From a virus: a stretch of DNA of 22,482 nt. The stretch is taken from the IMG/VR virus record IMGVR_UViG_2556921039_000001; one strand, given 5' to 3'. Positions 1 to 11,631 of the stretch are shown here, in pieces (the first letter of the stretch is position 1; every line of letters begins with the position of its first letter). Under the pieces are notes generated by a model. It did not search any database, was not told where the DNA came from, and saw only the letters and a list, made by a program, of their open reading frames with translations. A program made the position numbers and the translations under genes.

Positions 1-348
1 AGCGGCGTCATCAGCGATTTTCTTTTCATCAACCTGCAGCGGGACAGTACACAGGGGAAGCCGCTTCGCTACGGCAATTACTACGCCATCCTGAAAAGAT
101 GCGCCCAAAGGGCAGGCCTTGACCCTGAGAAAATACGAACGCACAGCGGACGCAGTACAAAGGTGATGGAGTATCTGGAGCGTCAGGCACTCCATCCGGA
201 GGATGGCATCACCGATGCCGTCATTATGGAGAGCTTCGGCTGGCGCTCCGCCGATTCCATCGTCCACTACCGGAACCACAACAATCAGGTCATAGCCAAA
301 GCGGTTATGGAAAAGCTGCACCGGAAGAAAGGTGGCGCCAATGATTAA
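1..348 (+). CDS. Tyrosine recombinase (TnpA-like), C-terminal part; truncated by the window start
   Basis: Frame 1 is open from base 1 (SGVISDFLFINLQRDSTQGKPLRYGNYYAILKRCAQRAGLDPEKIRTHSGRST...) to TAA at 346-348. It contains HxxR (HSGR), FGW at the LG[H/W] position and a candidate catalytic Tyr (IVHY). The ORF track only shows the part from 163. Confidence 0.85.
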   Translation, partial: SGVISDFLFINLQRDSTQGKPLRYGNYYAILKRCAQRAGLDPEKIRTHSGRSTKVMEYLERQALHPEDGITDAVIMESFGWRSADSIVHYRNHNNQVIAKAVMEKLHRKKGGAND

Positions 349-2596
349 ACTGCTTGAGATTAAGACCTGTACCGCCTTTTGGGACATAGACGGGACTGTC
401 CTGCGTTTTCAGAGACGAAAGCGCGTCGATGACGAGCTGACGGGCCGGACGATAGAACGGTACCGGGAACTGCTGCTGAATGAAACCTACAAAAGCTGCC
501 CGCAAATGCTCCGCGACATTGCCTGCATCTTAACGGATAACATTCTGGTACGAATCGGCATTGAGGTGTATCAAAAGCAATTTCTGAAAATGTTTGAGCA
601 CTATTCAAAGCTATATGTCGAGCAGTGGGAACAGGCCGGAAAATGTTTCATCTCCAACAAAACGGCTATGTTTCCTGTTTTCGAGTTCATGTTCCGAAAC
701 AGGCTGGTTGAACAGCCGGATAGTCCGATTACGATCTTGAGAGACATCCCGTGTGACAGCAAGATTTTTTTGAATATCTTTGAGGAATGCTTTTCATCCT
801 TCTGGGTAAACAAGATCAGGGAGAAGGTTCTGGGACAGGAAACGCTTGCCCCCATACGGAAACGAATTGGTCCCCTGCGGATAACACAATACCTCTGCCT
901 TCTGCCGGAGCCGGTCGTCACAGATTATCTTAATTCTATTGCAGGCAGATTTACACGGCAGCGCAGGCTCATCACCACGCAAAGCTTCTGCCACGAATTG
1001 CTTGGCAGCGACACATCCATTTCCAGCCCGCGTTTTCATCCAAGGTTTGTAACACTGGTCGCTGCCGAAGTTCGCCGCGAGTTTGAAATCCAGTGCCAAA
1101 AATTCATTGCTGAAAACCACCTGCAGCTTGATATGTCCAGTGACAAGTGGACGCTGTTCCACAGGCACGGGCCGTCCCTGCACCGGGAAACCATTGATTT
1201 TACAGGAATTCGTTCACCTTCCCTGCGGCTTGAAATCAAGTATTTCATGAAGCACAGATATTACAGCATCACCGCCGACAAAGACCGTGCCATTACTACC
1301 TTAGCGTACGCGGCCAATCTGCTCACAGATAACAATCCAAGTATTCGTTTTTTCGCGGATGTGGATGATGTTGATGTCCGGTCGCTGTACATGAGCATGG
1401 AGCGCAGATATGGACAAACAGCCGGAGGAAAGTCGGTATCCAATATCATGAGGGTTTTCAGCATTTTGTCGGTACTCATGGAATATCTGATGAGCAATCA
1501 TCGGGATGAAGCAATGCGCAGCCCCGTTCCACACGACAACCCCTTTTCCCGTTACCGGTTTCATAACGCAAAGGACTACAAGGTACGGACCGCCGCCATT
1601 CCGGAGGCTGTTGCGGAGCAGATCGATGCGCATCTGGATGAACTTGACCCGGTGCAGGCTCTGCTGTACCGGATTTTCTCTGCCACAGGCATGCGTATGA
1701 AGGAGGTGCTTTTTCTGGAGGCCGACTGTCTGGAACCGTCACAGTATGAGGGTGTTGTCCAACTTAAGTACAAGCAGTACAAAACCCTGACCGCCAGACG
1801 GAAGGCCGGTGTGCCGGATTATCACAGAGTGCTCATCCTGAAAGCATTGGCAGATGAAATCTCCGGACAGATTCACAAAACGAAAGAGTGGCGGAAGGAA
1901 CTTGGCGTGCCGTATCTGTTTGTCAACAAGCGGCCGAATTTTCGGGCCAGCATGATCAGTATGAGCAATTATCTGCTGGTCATCAACAGGCTCATTGAAA
2001 AATATGACCTCCGTGATGAAAACGGCCGGCTATGGCATTTTACCAGCAAACAGCAGCGCAAAACACTGACGGTTACCCTGATTGAAAACGGAGCGTCCGT
2101 GGATGAGCTTGCTTACTGGCTCGGACATCTTAGCAGAAACACTGCCTCAAATTACTACGCCGAAGTCCGGAAAATGAAGCTGGCTGAGCTCAATACAAGC
2201 TTCTTCCGGGAAAAATTCGATCTTCTGCTATCGGATGAACAGCTTGCGGAGTACACAGAGGAAGAACGCAGGCTGTTGTATATGGATTTCCGACTGGAAC
2301 AACGGCGGGTGGAGTTTGGATTCTGCCTGAAAAAGCTGGCCGATGGCGGCTGTACAAGCAGGAGCAGCCTGATCAACTGTGTAAACTGCAAAAATCTTTG
2401 TACAGGACCCAAGTATCTTCCGTACTGGCAGAGTCTCATGAACGGACAGCGCGAGGTTGTGAACAGCCTCCTCGCCGCTTATGCTGAGGCTGGTATTACG
2501 GACTATGAGGAATTCAGAGAATACAGACAGGCAACATTCCTTCTTAACTGCTATGAAAACATTGTAAACGCCATAGAAGGAGGTGCCTCGGTATGA
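341..2596 (+). CDS. Large tyrosine recombinase/integrase (Tn554 TnpB-like) with long N-terminal extension and C-terminal Cys cluster
   Basis: Motifs TGMRMKEV, HFTSKQQRKT (KxxR at the HxxR position) and LGHLSRNTASNYY; C-terminal GFC-x8-C-x8-CxxC. Start moved to ATG 341, which has an RBS (AAAGGTGG) and overlaps the upstream stop as ATGATTAA. Confidence 0.9.
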   Translation: MIKLLEIKTCTAFWDIDGTVLRFQRRKRVDDELTGRTIERYRELLLNETYKSCPQMLRDIACILTDNILVRIGIEVYQKQFLKMFEHYSKLYVEQWEQAGKCFISNKTAMFPVFEFMFRNRLVEQPDSPITILRDIPCDSKIFLNIFEECFSSFWVNKIREKVLGQETLAPIRKRIGPLRITQYLCLLPEPVVTDYLNSIAGRFTRQRRLITTQSFCHELLGSDTSISSPRFHPRFVTLVAAEVRREFEIQCQKFIAENHLQLDMSSDKWTLFHRHGPSLHRETIDFTGIRSPSLRLEIKYFMKHRYYSITADKDRAITTLAYAANLLTDNNPSIRFFADVDDVDVRSLYMSMERRYGQTAGGKSVSNIMRVFSILSVLMEYLMSNHRDEAMRSPVPHDNPFSRYRFHNAKDYKVRTAAIPEAVAEQIDAHLDELDPVQALLYRIFSATGMRMKEVLFLEADCLEPSQYEGVVQLKYKQYKTLTARRKAGVPDYHRVLILKALADEISGQIHKTKEWRKELGVPYLFVNKRPNFRASMISMSNYLLVINRLIEKYDLRDENGRLWHFTSKQQRKTLTVTLIENGASVDELAYWLGHLSRNTASNYYAEVRKMKLAELNTSFFREKFDLLLSDEQLAEYTEEERRLLYMDFRLEQRRVEFGFCLKKLADGGCTSRSSLINCVNCKNLCTGPKYLPYWQSLMNGQREVVNSLLAAYAEAGITDYEEFREYRQATFLLNCYENIVNAIEGGASV

Positions 2597-4128
2597 ATCT
2601 TCCGCAATACAAATACATCGAAAACTACGACGAGCAGCAAAAGAGCCGGTACTTTGCCCTTTTGCCGCAGCTTGGCAGCAATATTCACTTCGATGAGGAC
2701 ACATGGGTGTGTGACAAACGAATGCGAAGTGCGGCGGAGCCGAAGAATTACATGAACATCTACTTTTCTGCCGTTCCATCTGCTTACAAAGAAATGGTGA
2801 AATACTATTCACTCCTGCGGCTGCTGCATGGTGATACGGTCAGAACGATCCGGTCAAGGATAGCCCGTCTGGTTCCATTCTTGAAGTTCCTGGCCGCAGC
2901 CTGCTCGGCCCCCCTGCTTTCGGGCTGTGACATACGGACGGCTTCAAGGCTGAAAGAGCATCTGGATGCATCCAGCCTGGCGGACAGTACCATACGGGAC
3001 ATCTGGCGCGAGGCAGGTTCTCTGTTTCGCATGATGAACGGGTTTGACGGGGTACCCTGCAAAAATCCTTTTGCCTGCAATCCATATGCGCGAGCTGAAA
3101 AGCTGGACTCCAAATATATCCCGGATAAGGTGGCTGAAAAGCTGGACGGTATCTTCCGGCAAGAAGAAATAGATCTGCACATCCGGTGTATTTACTGGCT
3201 GCTGCGGCTCATTCCGTCCCGGATATCCGAAGTGCTGGCCATGGCAATCGACTGCGTAAAGCCGTACAACGGGAATTTCGTTCTCTTTATCCCAACATGG
3301 AAGCAGAACGGAGGCAACATGGAACCGATCCTGCGTTCTGTCCACATTGAGGATACGGGGATTGCCGGATATCTTCTGGATTTGCTTCGGGCACAACAGA
3401 CAGTAGCCGAGAAATTGCAGGAGCATTTGCCTGAAAACAAACGCGGTTGTCTTTTTACCTATCGGAGGGTGCTTCATTACAAAAACGGCACGGCTTCTCA
3501 GCCGGGCAGGGTTCAAAGTGTCTGTCCTGCCGTTGTGGACTACCATTTCAAAAGAATTTGTGAGCAGTACGGCGTCCTGGATGAAAATGGGGAGGTCTAC
3601 AACCTGACATCCCATCAATTCCGCCACAACGGAATTACCGACCGGCTGGAAGCAGGCTTCACGCTGGAACAGATTGCCGACATGACGGGCCACCACGGAA
3701 ACGCCATGATATGGAACGCCTATTCCCATCTGGATTTAAAGCCTAAGACCATCCTGCAAAAGCAGCGGTATGTTTTGAATGAGCCAAAGCCGCCGGATAA
3801 TCCATATATCCTGTTCGGCGGACGAATTCTCCATATGGAGGAAATGCTTGAAAAGCGGCTGCTTAAAAACCTCCGGGCCCATAAGGTTCCGGGAGGCATC
3901 TGCGGCGACGTTACCGGATGCAAAAGCGATATGTGGGATTGTCTTGAGTGCGGGCATTTTATCCCGGACAGAGATCAGCTTTCCTATTTCGAGGAACAAG
4001 CGTCCGCATGGCGCAGCAAAGCAGACCGTTTCTCGGATTTCCCGGCCATTCACGCCAATGCGTTGAGAAACGCGGATTTATTTGAGAGGATCGCAGCCAA
4101 ACTGCTGGGAGGTGAGAAAGATGAATAG
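2593..4128 (+). CDS. Tyrosine recombinase/integrase (second TnpB-like) with C-terminal Cys cluster
   Basis: Motifs PSRISEV, HQFRH and TGHHGNAMIWNAY; C-terminal GIC-x5-C-x6-CLECGHF. ATGA overlap with the upstream gene; RBS GGAGGTG. Confidence 0.92.
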   Translation: MNLPQYKYIENYDEQQKSRYFALLPQLGSNIHFDEDTWVCDKRMRSAAEPKNYMNIYFSAVPSAYKEMVKYYSLLRLLHGDTVRTIRSRIARLVPFLKFLAAACSAPLLSGCDIRTASRLKEHLDASSLADSTIRDIWREAGSLFRMMNGFDGVPCKNPFACNPYARAEKLDSKYIPDKVAEKLDGIFRQEEIDLHIRCIYWLLRLIPSRISEVLAMAIDCVKPYNGNFVLFIPTWKQNGGNMEPILRSVHIEDTGIAGYLLDLLRAQQTVAEKLQEHLPENKRGCLFTYRRVLHYKNGTASQPGRVQSVCPAVVDYHFKRICEQYGVLDENGEVYNLTSHQFRHNGITDRLEAGFTLEQIADMTGHHGNAMIWNAYSHLDLKPKTILQKQRYVLNEPKPPDNPYILFGGRILHMEEMLEKRLLKNLRAHKVPGGICGDVTGCKSDMWDCLECGHFIPDRDQLSYFEEQASAWRSKADRFSDFPAIHANALRNADLFERIAAKLLGGEKDE

Positions 4129-4516
4129 CAAAGTACCCAAGGAGCTTATTGCCCGGCAGGAGCACCAGCGCCAAACCACGGTCAATACTGTCCTGAGAGC
4201 AATTTCAGAGCTTCGGGCCGAAGGGCACAGGCTGACGATTAAGAATCTTATGGACTATACCGGATTGTCGCGGTCTGTTTTCGGCAAAAAGCATATCCGG
4301 GCTGTTTTGGTCAGTCAGGGAATTGTAGCCGCAGAAGCTTGCGGAGCAGAGCGCACGCCGCCTAAATCCACTGTTCAACAACGAATGAAGCAAAAGCTTG
4401 AGGAAAAGGAACAACAGATTCGTCGGCTAACCGAAGAAAATACCGCTTTGAAAAGTGAATGCGAACTGCTAAGGGGCAAGTTGTATCTCCTGATGCAGCG
4501 GCAGTCACTGGAGTAG
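4121..4516 (+). CDS. TnpC/DUF6262-like transposition helper (HTH plus coiled coil)
   Basis: 131 aa from ATG 4121 (RBS GGAGGTGA; ATGAATAG overlap). HTH-like LTIKNLMDYTGLSRSVF followed by a coiled coil (KQKLEEKEQQIRRLTEENTALKSECELLRGKL). Its position after the recombinases matches Tn554 tnpC. Confidence 0.75.
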   Translation: MNSKVPKELIARQEHQRQTTVNTVLRAISELRAEGHRLTIKNLMDYTGLSRSVFGKKHIRAVLVSQGIVAAEACGAERTPPKSTVQQRMKQKLEEKEQQIRRLTEENTALKSECELLRGKLYLLMQRQSLE

Positions 4517-4544: not shown

Positions 4545-4684
4545 TTAACACGATTAAACTATGAGGTTTGGTCGTGTTTTTTATTTAAAAATCAAAAATG
4601 AAAGAAGGAATTTATCTTGAAAAACAAGCATATTCAGTTTACCATTCTCGCACCACCGACAACCGCATACTTTAATCGTGTCAA
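4545..4684. repeat. 24-bp imperfect inverted repeat (arms 4545-4568 and 4661-4684); putative recombinase binding sites
   Basis: TTAACACGATTAAACTATGAGGTT versus the reverse complement of the right arm, TTGACACGATTAAAGTATGCGGTT: 21/24 identical, 92-bp spacer. Confidence 0.75.
4547..4586 (+). terminator. Putative intrinsic terminator after the tnpC-like gene
   Basis: AACACGATTAAAC-loop-GTTTGGTCGTGTT (G-U pairs) followed by TTTTATTT; overlaps the left arm of the inverted repeat. Confidence 0.55.
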
Positions 4685-4700
4685 TCGACCGTGCAGAAAA

Positions 4701-4754
4701 GTGCTTCCAACTCTAACGGATCGAATTAAAGAAATGTTCGATTTTCAAGGATAA
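4701..4754 (+). pseudogene. 3' remnant of a Flp-type major pilin gene (DUF6133-like), apparently interrupted by the recombinase element
   Basis: Translates to VLPTLTDRIKEMFDFQG*, matching my recollection of the conserved C-terminus of clostridial ICE Flp-like pilins (...LFGxxVLPTLTxRIKEMFNYxG). The leader and hydrophobic helix are absent, and the downstream Tad cluster lacks a major pilin. Confidence 0.65.
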
Positions 4755-10000: not shown

Positions 10001-11631
10001 CAAAAGAGGAAATTAATAAGATTATTGGCGATGAATTTTCGTCTTCAATAAAAAGTTCTCTTATGGGCTTTCCAGGGGATTTTGGTAACTACACAATGAG
10101 TTGTGTCCATGATTGGTCTCCAACAGCTATTACTGAAGAGAAGCCACAGACTGGAATTGAATTGAAACGAATATTCGCAGAGAAATTGCCGAACAAATTG
10201 CGAATTAGATATGAAAAATATTTAGATGATCAAGTGAAAGCTAATAGGTTAAGTGAGGAAATAGATATTGAAAGTTGGTTAGAGCAATTATCTAAGGAAG
10301 CATGGGACGAAACAGATAGTGAAAATGAAGAAAATATAGAAGAAGATTCATGGGAGTGTCTTAAGGAAGACATAAACAATGTTATTAATGAAATTGATAA
10401 GGAAGAATTCCGTTGGTTAAATGGTTTGAATAACGGGGAAAGACCTGCAGCATTTAGTAGAAAATGGGCACAAAGGTGGGTTTGTAAAAAAGCATATGAA
10501 TTAGGATGGTCAGATGAATTATTTGCAGATTTTGAGAAAATGTATTCTAATGGAGGAGGTCACGGTAGAGAAGGCGGAAGGATAGAACGCATAGGAAAAA
10601 AATATCAATGGATTGCATTTCACGAGATTCTGGCAAGAATGTCTGATAATTTGATATGGATTGATCGTGGATATAGTGATTTAGACGATCATAAATTTTT
10701 TGGACCATGGCAGATTCATAAAAGAGATATTGATCCAACGATATGGCTTAGCAAAACAGGGGATAGTGGATGGGATAAATGGGACAAAATGTTTTGGTGG
10801 CAACCATATAAATTTCCATTTGTTGAAGATAAACTAGAAGCTCAAATTGAATGGCTTTGGGATAAGTCAATAGTCCCCCCATTTAAGCAACTATTAACTG
10901 TTACTAATCCACAAGATAATATTCAATGGATAGTGTTGCAAGGATTTTCGAAATGGGATCAGGAACCGCTTAGCCAAAAAGATGTTATACCAAAACAAGA
11001 TGGCTGGTATAGGATTAATTCATGCATTATCCATAAAAATGATTATAAGAATTTAAAGTCTTATATGAAAGGTAAACCTTTATGTGATCCAGATATTGTT
11101 GGCATTTCTTCTACAGGTAATCAAGGGTACTTTGGAGAATATTCTTGGCATCCATACTATGAAAATATAGCTGAATGGAGAAATGAAGATGATGAATGGG
11201 ATAGAGGAATAAACGTAGAATATCATGTTCCTGTGTTAGAGTATGAATGGGAAAGTGGAAGTGTAGATCATTCTATTGATGAATCAATAAGATTCTATAT
11301 GCCGTCTCCTAAATTAATTAATGATTTAAATTTAGTTAATAGTATGAACCCTGGAAAATGGATAAATGGAAAAGGAGAATTAGTATTTATTGATCCGAGC
11401 ACTATGTATGAAGGACCATCTTACGGTTTAATTAGAAAAGATATAATGGAACAGTGGCTCGAAGAAAATGATCTACAGATTGTTTGGCTAATTGGTGGAG
11501 AAAAGCAATTGTTTACCTTTAGAGCTGATAAATTTTTTGGAAGATTAGTTTATAGTGGTATTTTTACTTTATTGAATGATGAATTAAAAGGTGAATTATG
11601 GTTTGAAGAAGAGAAAGGGCGGAATAGATGA
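7066..11631 (+). CDS. avs2: AVAST type 2 anti-phage STAND NTPase with N-terminal Mrr-like/PD-(D/E)xK nuclease-type domain
   Basis: Start moved to ATG 7066 (RBS AAGGAGG). N-terminus GFEELVCQL...GDAGVE...WQAKYF; Walker A GEAGIGKS (8137-8160); Walker B LLIVIDAINE; STAND motifs NPLFL and FTYERFSDY; C-terminal ERIGKKYQWIAFHEILA, which I recall as typical of Avs2; ~1521 aa. Confidence 0.82.
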   Translation: MVNIDFPNIRKHDGSQDKGFEELVCQLAHLKPPDNAQYFVRKEGDGGDAGVECYWKLNDETEHAWQAKYFLNVMTDSQWSQISKSVETALEKHPKLTKYYICLPRDWTDSRKTVKGKTVNSSWDKWVEHVKSWEELASKKGMKVKFEYWCKHEISQMLQVDKPEFAGRALYWFNEPIISTEILLRIAQKSKETLGERFTPEFHVELPIANKFDCLGLTNRWKKQLRGQCNIISEISEEYKRIFKHRIDSFSDKTIWNKLNENIEEFYSEFLSTVYRGEIFQSIDRLVSLTETIYKEVNSCNETIFEASYKENDTELKKKLQEISYDLRKISKKIDDINDFLNDKAISAGKNKSMLLLGEAGIGKSHLLCDISLKRLDEGFPTLFLLGQHYLGGNPLDFICSELGLPKYPYRTVLGALDSLGESKDTRLLIVIDAINEGINREAWHDNIIQFLTELEDYQHIAVVLSCRSTYKDYLIPENDNKLVEIEHYGFRGYEHRAAFKYLAKQGISKPGTPILTPEFTNPLFLKTCCKAIKGMGENKFPKGLNGFNKLYEFYIESAERVISRKKRYRSSEHIVVEAIRRFVSELYPDYISGLPIREAREIITKIDPKPNIGESLFELLIDEGVLAFDVIPSHVEKERGIEVVRFTYERFSDYAIAMYIIENCATEEDIGKLFLPDGTIGKIINENNKYKYSGIIEALGISIPEKFNKEFLEFMEFDDEEEYEYNWFFEKTFTNVILWRTGKSVTEKSLEMLNKVQHYSYNNQSLDILLALSTEPEHPWNADFLDANLSRMDMPKRDAFWSTYVAINDHSENEYGEETVVRTLIDWSLNAELEEVELERLRLTAVVLLWMTTTSNRKVRDQATKSLARVLYHIPQHIVSFIEKFNNCDDVYLVERLYASIYGVVVHLDSNLIIKDVSVCVYNHQFKDYRPYPDILLRDYARGIMEFAYHKNLLNDVLDNPEIFRPPYFSDWPIENPSKEEINKIIGDEFSSSIKSSLMGFPGDFGNYTMSCVHDWSPTAITEEKPQTGIELKRIFAEKLPNKLRIRYEKYLDDQVKANRLSEEIDIESWLEQLSKEAWDETDSENEENIEEDSWECLKEDINNVINEIDKEEFRWLNGLNNGERPAAFSRKWAQRWVCKKAYELGWSDELFADFEKMYSNGGGHGREGGRIERIGKKYQWIAFHEILARMSDNLIWIDRGYSDLDDHKFFGPWQIHKRDIDPTIWLSKTGDSGWDKWDKMFWWQPYKFPFVEDKLEAQIEWLWDKSIVPPFKQLLTVTNPQDNIQWIVLQGFSKWDQEPLSQKDVIPKQDGWYRINSCIIHKNDYKNLKSYMKGKPLCDPDIVGISSTGNQGYFGEYSWHPYYENIAEWRNEDDEWDRGINVEYHVPVLEYEWESGSVDHSIDESIRFYMPSPKLINDLNLVNSMNPGKWINGKGELVFIDPSTMYEGPSYGLIRKDIMEQWLEENDLQIVWLIGGEKQLFTFRADKFFGRLVYSGIFTLLNDELKGELWFEEEKGRNR

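What the first reader, a model, noticed from the sequence alone, without database searches (positions are those of the whole stretch)
1..4516. Four-gene tyrosine-recombinase element: TnpA-like, two TnpB-like and TnpC-like
Seen: three tyrosine recombinases and an HTH/coiled-coil gene, coupled by ATGATTAA, ATGA and ATGAATAG overlaps and GC-richer than the flanking DNA. Recombinases 2 and 3 both end in a G(F/I)C...C...CxxC cluster. Known: Tn554 has two recombinases (TnpA, and TnpB with such a Cys tail) plus TnpC; RIT elements have three recombinases and no TnpC. Inference: this is a distinct Tn554-related class with a duplicated, diverged TnpB, possibly working as a heteromeric recombinase.
Basis: partly seen in the sequence, partly recalled or inferred. 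Interest (0 to 1): 0.7.

Follow-up and report, generated by a model that had tools for sequence, protein, structure and literature searches.

The report
Three-recombinase Tn554-like transposon in ICE gene
This is the right-hand 4.7 kb of a 6-kb mobile element related to the staphylococcal transposon Tn554 but with an extra, diverged copy of its large recombinase. That gene layout was already described as "GInt", so this is a new variant of a known kind, not a new class.

Summary
Bases 1-4516 carry the last 115 codons of a TnpA-like recombinase (cut by the contig start), two TnpB-like recombinases and a TnpC-like DUF6262 protein, all with overlapping stop and start codons. GC is 0.50 against 0.33 in the flank. 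The element ends at base 4700.

A complete 6006-bp copy elsewhere in the genome adds a fifth gene at the left end (DUF6133). The genome holds three copies, each at the same codon of the DUF6133 gene of a different conjugative element. Twelve or more relatives in Clostridial MAGs and metagenomes are inserted the same way.

Both large recombinases match Tn554 TnpB, keep its Cys4 tail and keep the catalytic R..(H/K)xxR..H..Y residues. In trees they form position-specific clades shared with four-gene cassettes of Bacillus plasmids.

The joined ends would form a 12-6-12 palindromic core. The flanking hexamers are never identical. The window copy's right hexamer equals a twin copy's left hexamer, as in Tn554 and SE 6-bp carry-over.

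"Duplicated TnpB" is supported. "Distinct class" is weakened, because GInts (2017) already have three integrases plus a TnpC-like gene. Here the third recombinase looks catalytically intact.

This scan has already reported this element (e1-5691778) and similar three-recombinase elements on other DNA.

The parts
1..348 (+). Last 115 codons of recombinase 1 (TnpA-like, 388 aa in the full copy L004:5660-6826). It is cut by the contig start. Box II is H321-x-x-R324, followed by W354 and Y363.
341..2596 (+). Recombinase 2 (751 aa). It is TnpB-like from about residue 255, with an N-terminal extension of about 250 aa. Catalytic residues are R452, K570-x-x-R573, H596 and Y606. The Cys tail is C662, C671, C680 and C683.
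2593..4128 (+). Recombinase 3 (511 aa). It is TnpB-like over residues 30-504 but lacks the N-terminal ~170 aa of TnpB. Catalytic residues are R210, H341-x-x-R344, H367 and Y377. The Cys tail is C437, C443, C450 and C453.
4121..4516 (+). TnpC-like protein (131 aa, Pfam DUF6262) with an N-terminal HTH-like part and a C-terminal coiled coil.
4547..4578 (+). Terminator-like hairpin (14-bp stem followed by a T run) after the operon. It contains one copy of the ACACGATTAAA motif that also lies in both terminal repeats.
4669..4700 (.). Right terminal inverted repeat, ACTTTAATCGTGTCAATCGACCGTGCAGAAAA. Its reverse complement matches the left end TTTTCTTCACGGTATAAACACGATAGAAAGT, which lies on contigs C12 and C17 and in L004.
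4701..4706 (+). Junction hexamer GTGCTT. It repeats the Val-Leu codons of the target but differs from this copy's left hexamer (ATTTTG on C12). It is identical to the left hexamer of the twin copy on C17.
4707..4754 (+). 3' remnant (PTLTDRIKEMFDFQG, then stop) of the conjugative element's DUF6133 gene that the transposon split.

Best explanation
The region is the recombination operon and right end of a 6.0-kb site-specific transposon of the Tn554/GInt superfamily.

Gene order is left inverted repeat, DUF6133 gene, tnpA-like, tnpB-like, second tnpB-like, tnpC-like (DUF6262), terminator and right inverted repeat.

Inferred mechanism, by analogy with Tn554, SEs and GInts:
- The proteins join the two ends into a circular form.
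- The junction of that form is a classical tyrosine-recombinase core, CCGTGCAGAAAA-N6-TTTTCTTCACGG.
- This core recombines with one fixed site, the (V/I)-L|P-T codons of DUF6133 genes in conjugative elements.
- No homology is needed in the 6-bp overlap, so six bases from the donor's left flank end up at the right junction of the new copy.

All three recombinases keep the catalytic residues, so a mixed A/B/B' complex is likely. The element then spreads by riding on the conjugative elements it sits in.
For: Shown by sequence:
- Homology. Recombinase 1 matches TnpA (4e-13). Recombinase 2 matches Tn554 TnpB (2e-18) and recombinase 3 matches it too (2e-13). Recombinases 2 and 3 match each other at 5e-11.
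- The Cys4 tail is shared with canonical Tn554 TnpB.
- ORF4 is DUF6262, the family name PGAP gives to Tn554 TnpC.
- The catalytic residues are intact in all three recombinases.
- The model of recombinase 3 has the XerH/Cre/Tn1549-Int fold.
- In the careful ML tree, position-2 and position-3 proteins each form a clade with 100/100 support that includes Bacillus plasmid and G045 cassettes. All four-gene B-type proteins group apart from three-gene TnpB at 86/77.
- There are three copies in three conjugative elements with flank GC of 0.33-0.37, 0.40-0.42 and 0.49-0.57, with sharp boundaries at the same codon.
- Twelve or more related loci at 62-96% identity are inserted in the same way.
- Left and right hexamers differ in 10 of 10 complete copies.
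- Copies A and B differ by 1 base in 4904 compared, and A's right hexamer equals B's left hexamer.

From the literature:
- The 6-bp carry-over rule for SEs and Tn554 comes from PMC10214605.
- The essentiality of all four gin genes comes from PMC5385486.
Against: - No circular junction was seen. A scan of public metagenome contigs for the predicted junction found nothing.
- No empty site was found in relatives.
- The pairing of contig ends (C12 with C11, C17 with C2 start) rests on GC content alone.
- The hexamers are limited to Val/Ile-Leu codons, so the match between A's right and B's left hexamer could be chance (roughly 1 in 10).
- Deep nodes of the tree are weak: 50/41 for recombinases 2 and 3 as sisters, and 66/25 for the three-gene TnpB clade.
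- Recombinase 2 has Lys in place of the first box II His.
- Activity of any of the proteins is untested.
Confidence: 0.8

Rival explanations
1. It is simply a GInt (ginABCD, Tn6571 family), an ordinary member of an already named group with nothing distinct about it.
For: - The operon layout is the same: three integrase-type genes plus a small TnpC-like gene.
- Firmicutes GInts are listed in Table S3 of PMC5385486.
- BLAST to the E. coli H10407 GInt-like operon passes the permissive E<0.1 criterion of Bardaji et al.: GinA with recombinase 1 at 4e-6, GinB with recombinase 2 at 7e-3, GinC with recombinase 3 at 0.012.
- GinC matches the recombinase 3 profile at E 2.4e-5.
Against: - The third protein keeps the first Arg and scores above the PF00589 cut-off (36 bits). 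GinC lacks that Arg and has no PF00589 hit.
- The fourth protein is DUF6262 (65 bits), while GinD is not, and its profile comparison with DUF6262 is insignificant.
- All proteins are far closer to Tn554 proteins than to Gin proteins.
- This copy has no cargo after the fourth gene, and in relatives the cargo lies before gene 1.
- The type GInt of Pseudomonas could not be compared.
Confidence: 0.15
2. It is a recombinase-in-trio (RIT) element.
For: It has three consecutive tyrosine recombinases and imperfect terminal inverted repeats of about 31 bp.
Against: - RIT proteins are 315-410 aa and RITs have no TnpC (PMC10214605).
- Here the proteins are 388, 751 and 511 aa, two of them have the TnpB Cys4 tail, and a DUF6262 gene follows.
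- Direct BLAST places the proteins with Tn554 TnpA and TnpB.
- No Rit sequences could be fetched for a tree.
Confidence: 0.02
3. It is not one element. Either a three-gene Tn554-like transposon lies next to an unrelated integrase, or the genes are the conjugative element's own integration module.
For: The genes lie inside a conjugative transfer region.
Against: - All four genes overlap by 4-8 bases.
- The same four-gene order holds in relatives down to about 25-30% identity.
- The whole block, with identical ends, sits in three unrelated conjugative elements, splitting one gene at one codon.
Confidence: 0.03

Closest known systems
Tn554 family (Tn554, Tn558, Tn553, Tn6674, Tn6188; tnpA-tnpB-tnpC) of Staphylococcus, Enterococcus and Listeria
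   Same: - It has a TnpA-like small recombinase.
- It has a TnpB-like large recombinase with the GxC..C..CxxC tail.
- It has a TnpC of Pfam DUF6262.
- The genes overlap.
- Insertion is site-specific.
- Flanking 6-mers are non-identical, which fits donor-derived 6-bp carry-over.
   Different: - It has three recombinases, not two. The TnpB-type gene is present twice as deeply diverged paralogues (23% identity).
- One paralogue has a new N-terminal extension of about 250 aa, and the other lacks TnpB's N-terminal ~170 aa.
- This copy carries no resistance cargo.
- It carries a copy of its own target gene.
- The target lies inside conjugative elements of Clostridia.
[quoted passage not shown] 2017, PMC5385486)
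   Same: - The operon has three consecutive integrase-type genes plus a small TnpC-like protein.
- Insertion is site-specific, into a gene.
- Flanking repeats are imperfect.
- A circular form is expected.
- Firmicutes examples were already listed.
   Different: - GinC lacks the first catalytic Arg and any PF00589 hit, whereas the third protein here is intact.
- GinD is not DUF6262.
- Sequence similarity to the one Gin operon I could reach is marginal.
- GInts carry 2.5-70 kb of cargo after ginD, whereas this element is 6 kb with nothing after the fourth gene.
SEs (strand-biased circularizing integrative elements; intA-tfp-intB-srap; the 'gamma-mobile-trio' of NCBIfam; Idola et al. 2023, PMC10214605)
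   Same: - It has four core genes including an ordinary and a large recombinase.
- There is a 6-bp footprint copied from the donor's left flank to the new right junction.
- The donor copy appears to be retained.
   Different: - The gene order differs, because the non-catalytic Tfp is second in SEs.
- NCBIfam GmtY and VPA1267 scores are far below their cut-offs.
- The SE example L039 shares only marginal BLAST similarity.
RIT elements (ritA-ritB-ritC; Ricker et al. 2013)
   Same: It has three tyrosine recombinases in a row and terminal inverted repeats.
   Different: RIT proteins are all 315-410 aa, with no Cys4 tail reported and no TnpC-like gene.

Membership tests
Tn554 family | The first gene is a TnpA-type tyrosine recombinase. 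| tested here: met
   Recombinase 1 matches TnpA proteins at 4e-13 to 1e-7 and lies in the A clade (93/67).
Tn554 family | A large TnpB-type recombinase with a C-terminal Cys4 motif. | tested here: met
   Recombinase 2 matches Tn554 TnpB at 2e-18 and recombinase 3 at 2e-13. The motif aligns with NGYC..C..CxxC of Tn554 TnpB.
Tn554 family | A TnpC protein (Pfam DUF6262). | tested here: met
   ORF4 scores 64.9 bits (cut-off 29). PGAP annotates Tn554 TnpC as a DUF6262 family protein.
Tn554 family | A three-gene operon with exactly two recombinases. | tested here: not met
   Three recombinase genes are present. This is conserved in all relatives of this lineage.
Tn554 family | No true target duplication, with a 6-bp junction sequence carried over from the donor. 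| tested here: inconclusive
   Hexamers differ in 10 of 10 copies, and copy A's right hexamer equals copy B's left hexamer. The contig pairing rests on GC, and no transposition was observed.
GInt (ginABCD) | An operon of three consecutive integrase-type genes plus a small TnpC-like gene at one end of the element. | tested here: met
   The definition is taken from PMC5385486.
GInt (ginABCD) | The third protein (GinC) is degenerate, lacking the first catalytic Arg and often unrecognisable as an integrase. | tested here: not met
   Recombinase 3 has R210, H341, R344, H367 and Y377 and scores 36.1 bits on PF00589. The E. coli GinC has no PF00589 hit.
GInt (ginABCD) | BLASTP homology of the three proteins to GinA, GinB and GinC (E<0.1 in Bardaji et al.). 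| tested here: inconclusive
   Values against the E. coli H10407 GInt-like operon are 4e-6, 7e-3 and 0.012, in a tiny database.
GInt (ginABCD) | Cargo DNA after ginD and a short AT-rich 3' end. | tested here: not met
   Only 184 bp follow ORF4. In relatives the cargo (ArsR, CDF transporter, M23 peptidase) lies before gene 1.
RIT | Three recombinases of 315-410 aa and no TnpC-like gene. | tested here: not met
   The proteins are 388, 751 and 511 aa and a DUF6262 gene follows. The definition is from PMC10214605.
RIT | Placement inside the RitA, RitB and RitC clades. | not testable with these tools
   No Rit sequences could be reached. The CH34 chromid holds no recombinase trio.
SE (gamma-mobile-trio) | The order intA, tfp (non-catalytic), intB, srap, with matches to the NCBIfam Gmt and VPA1267 models. 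| tested here: not met
   GmtY scores 15 bits (cut-off 340) and VPA1267 scores 16.5 bits (cut-off 90). The second protein here is catalytic.

The most novel reading that the evidence does not exclude
This Firmicutes lineage may be the missing link between Tn554 and GInts. It would be a natural system in which one TnpA-type and two diverged TnpB-type recombinases are all catalytically active. They would divide the work at the two ends and the target as a heteromeric complex, and the element would move by a copy-out route that leaves the donor in place. GinC of GInts would then be a decayed TnpB paralogue.
Probability: 0.3. Interest if true: 0.6.

Novelty: new variant of a known kind. Interest (0 to 1): 0.45.

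Why it matters
The relationships among Tn554, GInts, SEs and RITs are described in the literature as still vague (PMC10214605). This family has Tn554-grade sequence similarity but the GInt gene layout, with all three recombinases apparently intact. It therefore gives a concrete hypothesis for how the three-integrase machines arose, namely by duplication of tnpB.

At 6 kb it is also a small, cargo-free system for asking why three recombinases are needed. The twin copies in one genome offer a natural record of 6-bp carry-over with the donor retained. In practice, such elements are annotated only as "site-specific integrase" and break assemblies of conjugative elements.

Tried and rejected
- A scan of metagenome contigs for the predicted circular junction found nothing.
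- The 6029-bp contig L056 looked like a possible circle but is an ordinary linear piece.
- No empty target site was found in 20 relatives.
- The NCBIfam GmtY search of the genome gave only noise.
- IMG coordinates for the H10407 GInt did not fit the RefSeq record. The operon was found instead by listing all PF00589 genes.
- Type Pseudomonas GInt proteins and Rit proteins could not be reached. The CH34 chromid has no trio, and a TnpC-based tblastn of plasmids found only DUF6262 genes.
- GinD against the DUF6262 profile showed only coiled-coil similarity.
- The host's GTDB class holds only five species, so a search at class level was uninformative.
- The idea that the ORF running from the right end into the target remnant (4617-4754) is functional was dropped, because the right-end sequence is not conserved in relatives.
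Full report
WHAT IS IN THE WINDOW

The window is G000:C11:2-22483, so it begins at a contig start. On the + strand there are four overlapping ORFs:
- 1-348, open at the 5' end, 115 codons
- 341-2596, 751 aa from the ATG
- 2593-4128, 511 aa
- 4121-4516, 131 aa

GC is about 0.50 up to about base 4500 and 0.26-0.37 after it. Pfam finds PF00589 in the first three proteins and DUF6262 (9e-18) plus coiled-coil signals in the fourth. NCBIfam gives nothing above its cut-offs.

THE WHOLE ELEMENT

The genome holds three copies.
- Copy C is complete, at C2:246172-252177 (6006 bp, GC 0.49, 95% identical to the window copy).
- The window copy (A) and a twin (B, at the start of C2) are cut by contig ends. 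Their left parts are the first 1253 bases of contigs C12 and C17.
- A and B differ by 1 base in 3651 on the right and by 0 in 1253 on the left.

In copy C the operon is preceded by a full-length recombinase 1 (388 aa) and, 150 bp inside the left end, by a 76-aa DUF6133 gene (1.6e-33).

The ends are imperfect inverted repeats. The left end is TTTTCTTCACGGTATAAACACGATAGAAAGT. The reverse complement of the right end is TTTTCTGCACGGTCGATTGACACGATTAAAGT. In the window the right end is at 4669-4700. A terminator-like hairpin follows ORF4 at 4547-4578.

TARGET

- All three copies split a DUF6133 gene at the same codon, (V/I)-L|P-T.
- That gene lies between a coupling-protein gene and TrbL/PrgI-type genes of three different conjugative elements.
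- Window 4707-4754 is the 3' remnant of that gene.
- Eight loci from MAGs (62-96% identity) and eleven from metagenomes, some of them the same records, show the same layout and the same insertion point wherever the junction is on the contig.
- An earlier report of this scan (e1-5691778) reached the same reading of the target and the spare gene. I confirmed it independently.

WHAT THE PROTEINS ARE

Canonical Tn554 (with ant(9)-Ia and erm(A)) and other Tn554-type operons were taken from plasmid records. PGAP names Tn554 TnpC "DUF6262 family protein", so ORF4 is a TnpC homologue.

| Protein | Best match | E-value or detail |
|---|---|---|
| Recombinase 1 | TnpA proteins | 4e-13 |
| Recombinase 2 | Tn554 TnpB | 2e-18, from about residue 255 onward |
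| Recombinase 3 | Tn554 TnpB | 2e-13; residues 30-504 align to 177-626 of a closely related Tn554-family TnpB |
| Recombinase 2 vs 3 | each other | 23% identity; 1e-12 pairwise, 5e-11 in the set |

All three proteins keep the catalytic residues:
- Recombinase 1: Arg I, H321, R324, W354, Y363
- Recombinase 2: R452, K570, R573, H596, Y606
- Recombinase 3: R210, H341, R344, H367, Y377

An AlphaFold model of recombinase 3 (pLDDT 77) matches XerH, Tn1549 Int and Cre. The Cys region is modelled with low confidence, so zinc binding is only inferred.

IS THE FOUR-GENE LAYOUT A LINEAGE?

The same order (A, B, B', DUF6262) occurs in several places:
- at least 14 Bacillus cereus-group plasmid records at 25-32% identity
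- genome G335
- in degenerate form, genome G348

A careful ML tree (50 proteins, 477 columns) gives these results:
- an A clade (93/67)
- a position-2 clade and a position-3 clade, each 100/100, each holding the window family, the Bacillus cassettes and G045
- all four-gene B-type proteins together at 86/77, apart from three-gene TnpB

The sister relation of the two position clades is weak (50/41). In G335 and G348 the two B-type proteins are each other's sisters (61/82), which suggests a second, independent duplication. So "duplicated, diverged TnpB" is supported, and the duplication is old.

COMPARISON WITH GInt, SE AND RIT

GInts are defined by ginABCD, that is, three integrase-type genes plus a small protein related to TnpC. 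All four genes are essential, and examples are listed in Roseburia and Eubacterium (PMC5385486). SEs and RITs are summarised in PMC10214605.

I found a GInt-like operon in E. coli H10407, a strain flagged as GInt-bearing in PMC10121019, and an SE in a Photobacterium plasmid.
- GinC has no PF00589 hit and GinD is not DUF6262.
- BLAST between Gin proteins and ours is marginal (4e-6, 7e-3, 0.012).
- GinC does match the recombinase 3 profile across box II and the Tyr (E 2.4e-5, probability 76%).

The element therefore has the GInt architecture but Tn554-grade sequences and an intact third enzyme. RIT is excluded on protein sizes and the presence of TnpC, although a Rit phylogeny could not be done.

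MECHANISM

Shown:
- If joined, the ends give CCGTGCAGAAAA-N6-TTTTCTTCACGG, with 12-bp inverted arms (11 of 12 complementary) around a 6-bp spacer.
- In 10 of 10 complete copies the hexamers left and right of the element both encode (V/I)-L but differ in sequence. One hexamer is therefore extra, and it is not a target duplication.
- Flank GC pairs C12 (0.37) with C11 (0.33) and pairs C17 (0.55) with the C2 start (0.50).
- Copy A then has ATTTTG on the left and GTGCTT on the right. Copy B has GTGCTT on the left and GTTCTC on the right.

Inferred:
- The element hopped from the GC-rich conjugative element (B) into the AT-rich one (A), carrying B's left hexamer to A's right junction. This is the rule reported for SEs and Tn554-related elements (PMC10214605).
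- B is still occupied, which fits copy-out. Replication of the donor before a cut-out event cannot be excluded.
- A mixed complex of the three recombinases, with TnpC as an accessory factor, is inferred from Tn554 and GInt genetics only.

LIMITS

- No circular junction was found in public metagenome contigs.
- No empty site was found.
- The type GInt and the RIT proteins were not compared.

VERDICT

The element is a Tn554-related transposon with a duplicated TnpB. The three-integrase-plus-TnpC design is already known as GInt, and this scan has met similar elements in other genomes. The family is large in public data, with at least 281 clusters of recombinase 3 relatives, named only "integrase".

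Noticed in passing
L059:1233-10170: Two diverged cassettes lie in tandem. The first is recombinase 2 (partial), recombinase 3 and DUF6262. It is followed directly by a DUF6133 gene and a second full four-gene cassette. No recognisable terminal repeats lie between them.
   Followed up: partly
L035:9677-11366 (same as L065:8677-10366): Recombinase 3 of a relative is split by a 1.7-kb insertion sequence encoding a DDE transposase (DUF772 and DDE_Tnp_1).
   Followed up: partly
L032:2532-5842 (also L033, L034, L060-L062): Relatives at 62% identity carry 3.3 kb of cargo between the DUF6133 gene and recombinase 1. The cargo is an ArsR-type regulator, a cation-efflux (CDF) transporter and an M23/LysM/G5 peptidase.
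   Followed up: partly
L045:5492-11041: A distant relative in genome G045 has only the two B-type recombinases (881 and 556 aa) plus a 172-aa protein. It has no TnpA-like gene and lies directly after a truncated dUTPase gene.
   Followed up: partly
L043:5017-9544: Genome G335 has a separate A, B, B', DUF6262 cassette whose two B-type proteins are each other's closest relatives. This suggests that tnpB was duplicated more than once.
   Followed up: partly
L004:5190-5200, 11026-11036, 11149-11159 (window about 4548-4558 and 4671-4681): The motif ACACGATWRAA occurs exactly three times in the element: once in each terminal repeat and once in the terminator hairpin 123 bp inside the right end. These may be extra recombinase-binding sites.
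   Followed up: partly
L054:6284-11055 and L039:5287-11483: GinA of the E. coli H10407 GInt-like operon is 27% identical to IntA of a Photobacterium SE (7e-34). Its GinC and GinD also hit SE proteins (4e-6, 1e-6). The literature reports no BLAST similarity between SEs and the type GInt.
   Followed up: no
G000 contigs C12/C11, C17/C2 start, C2:241000-257000: One genome (GC 0.39, from a GTDB class with only five species) holds three different conjugative elements, with flank GC from 0.33 to 0.55. Each carries a copy of the transposon.
   Followed up: partly
window 4617-4754: An ORF starts at TTG 4617 inside the right end and reads into the target remnant. The right-end sequence is not conserved in relatives, so the ORF is probably meaningless.
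   Followed up: yes
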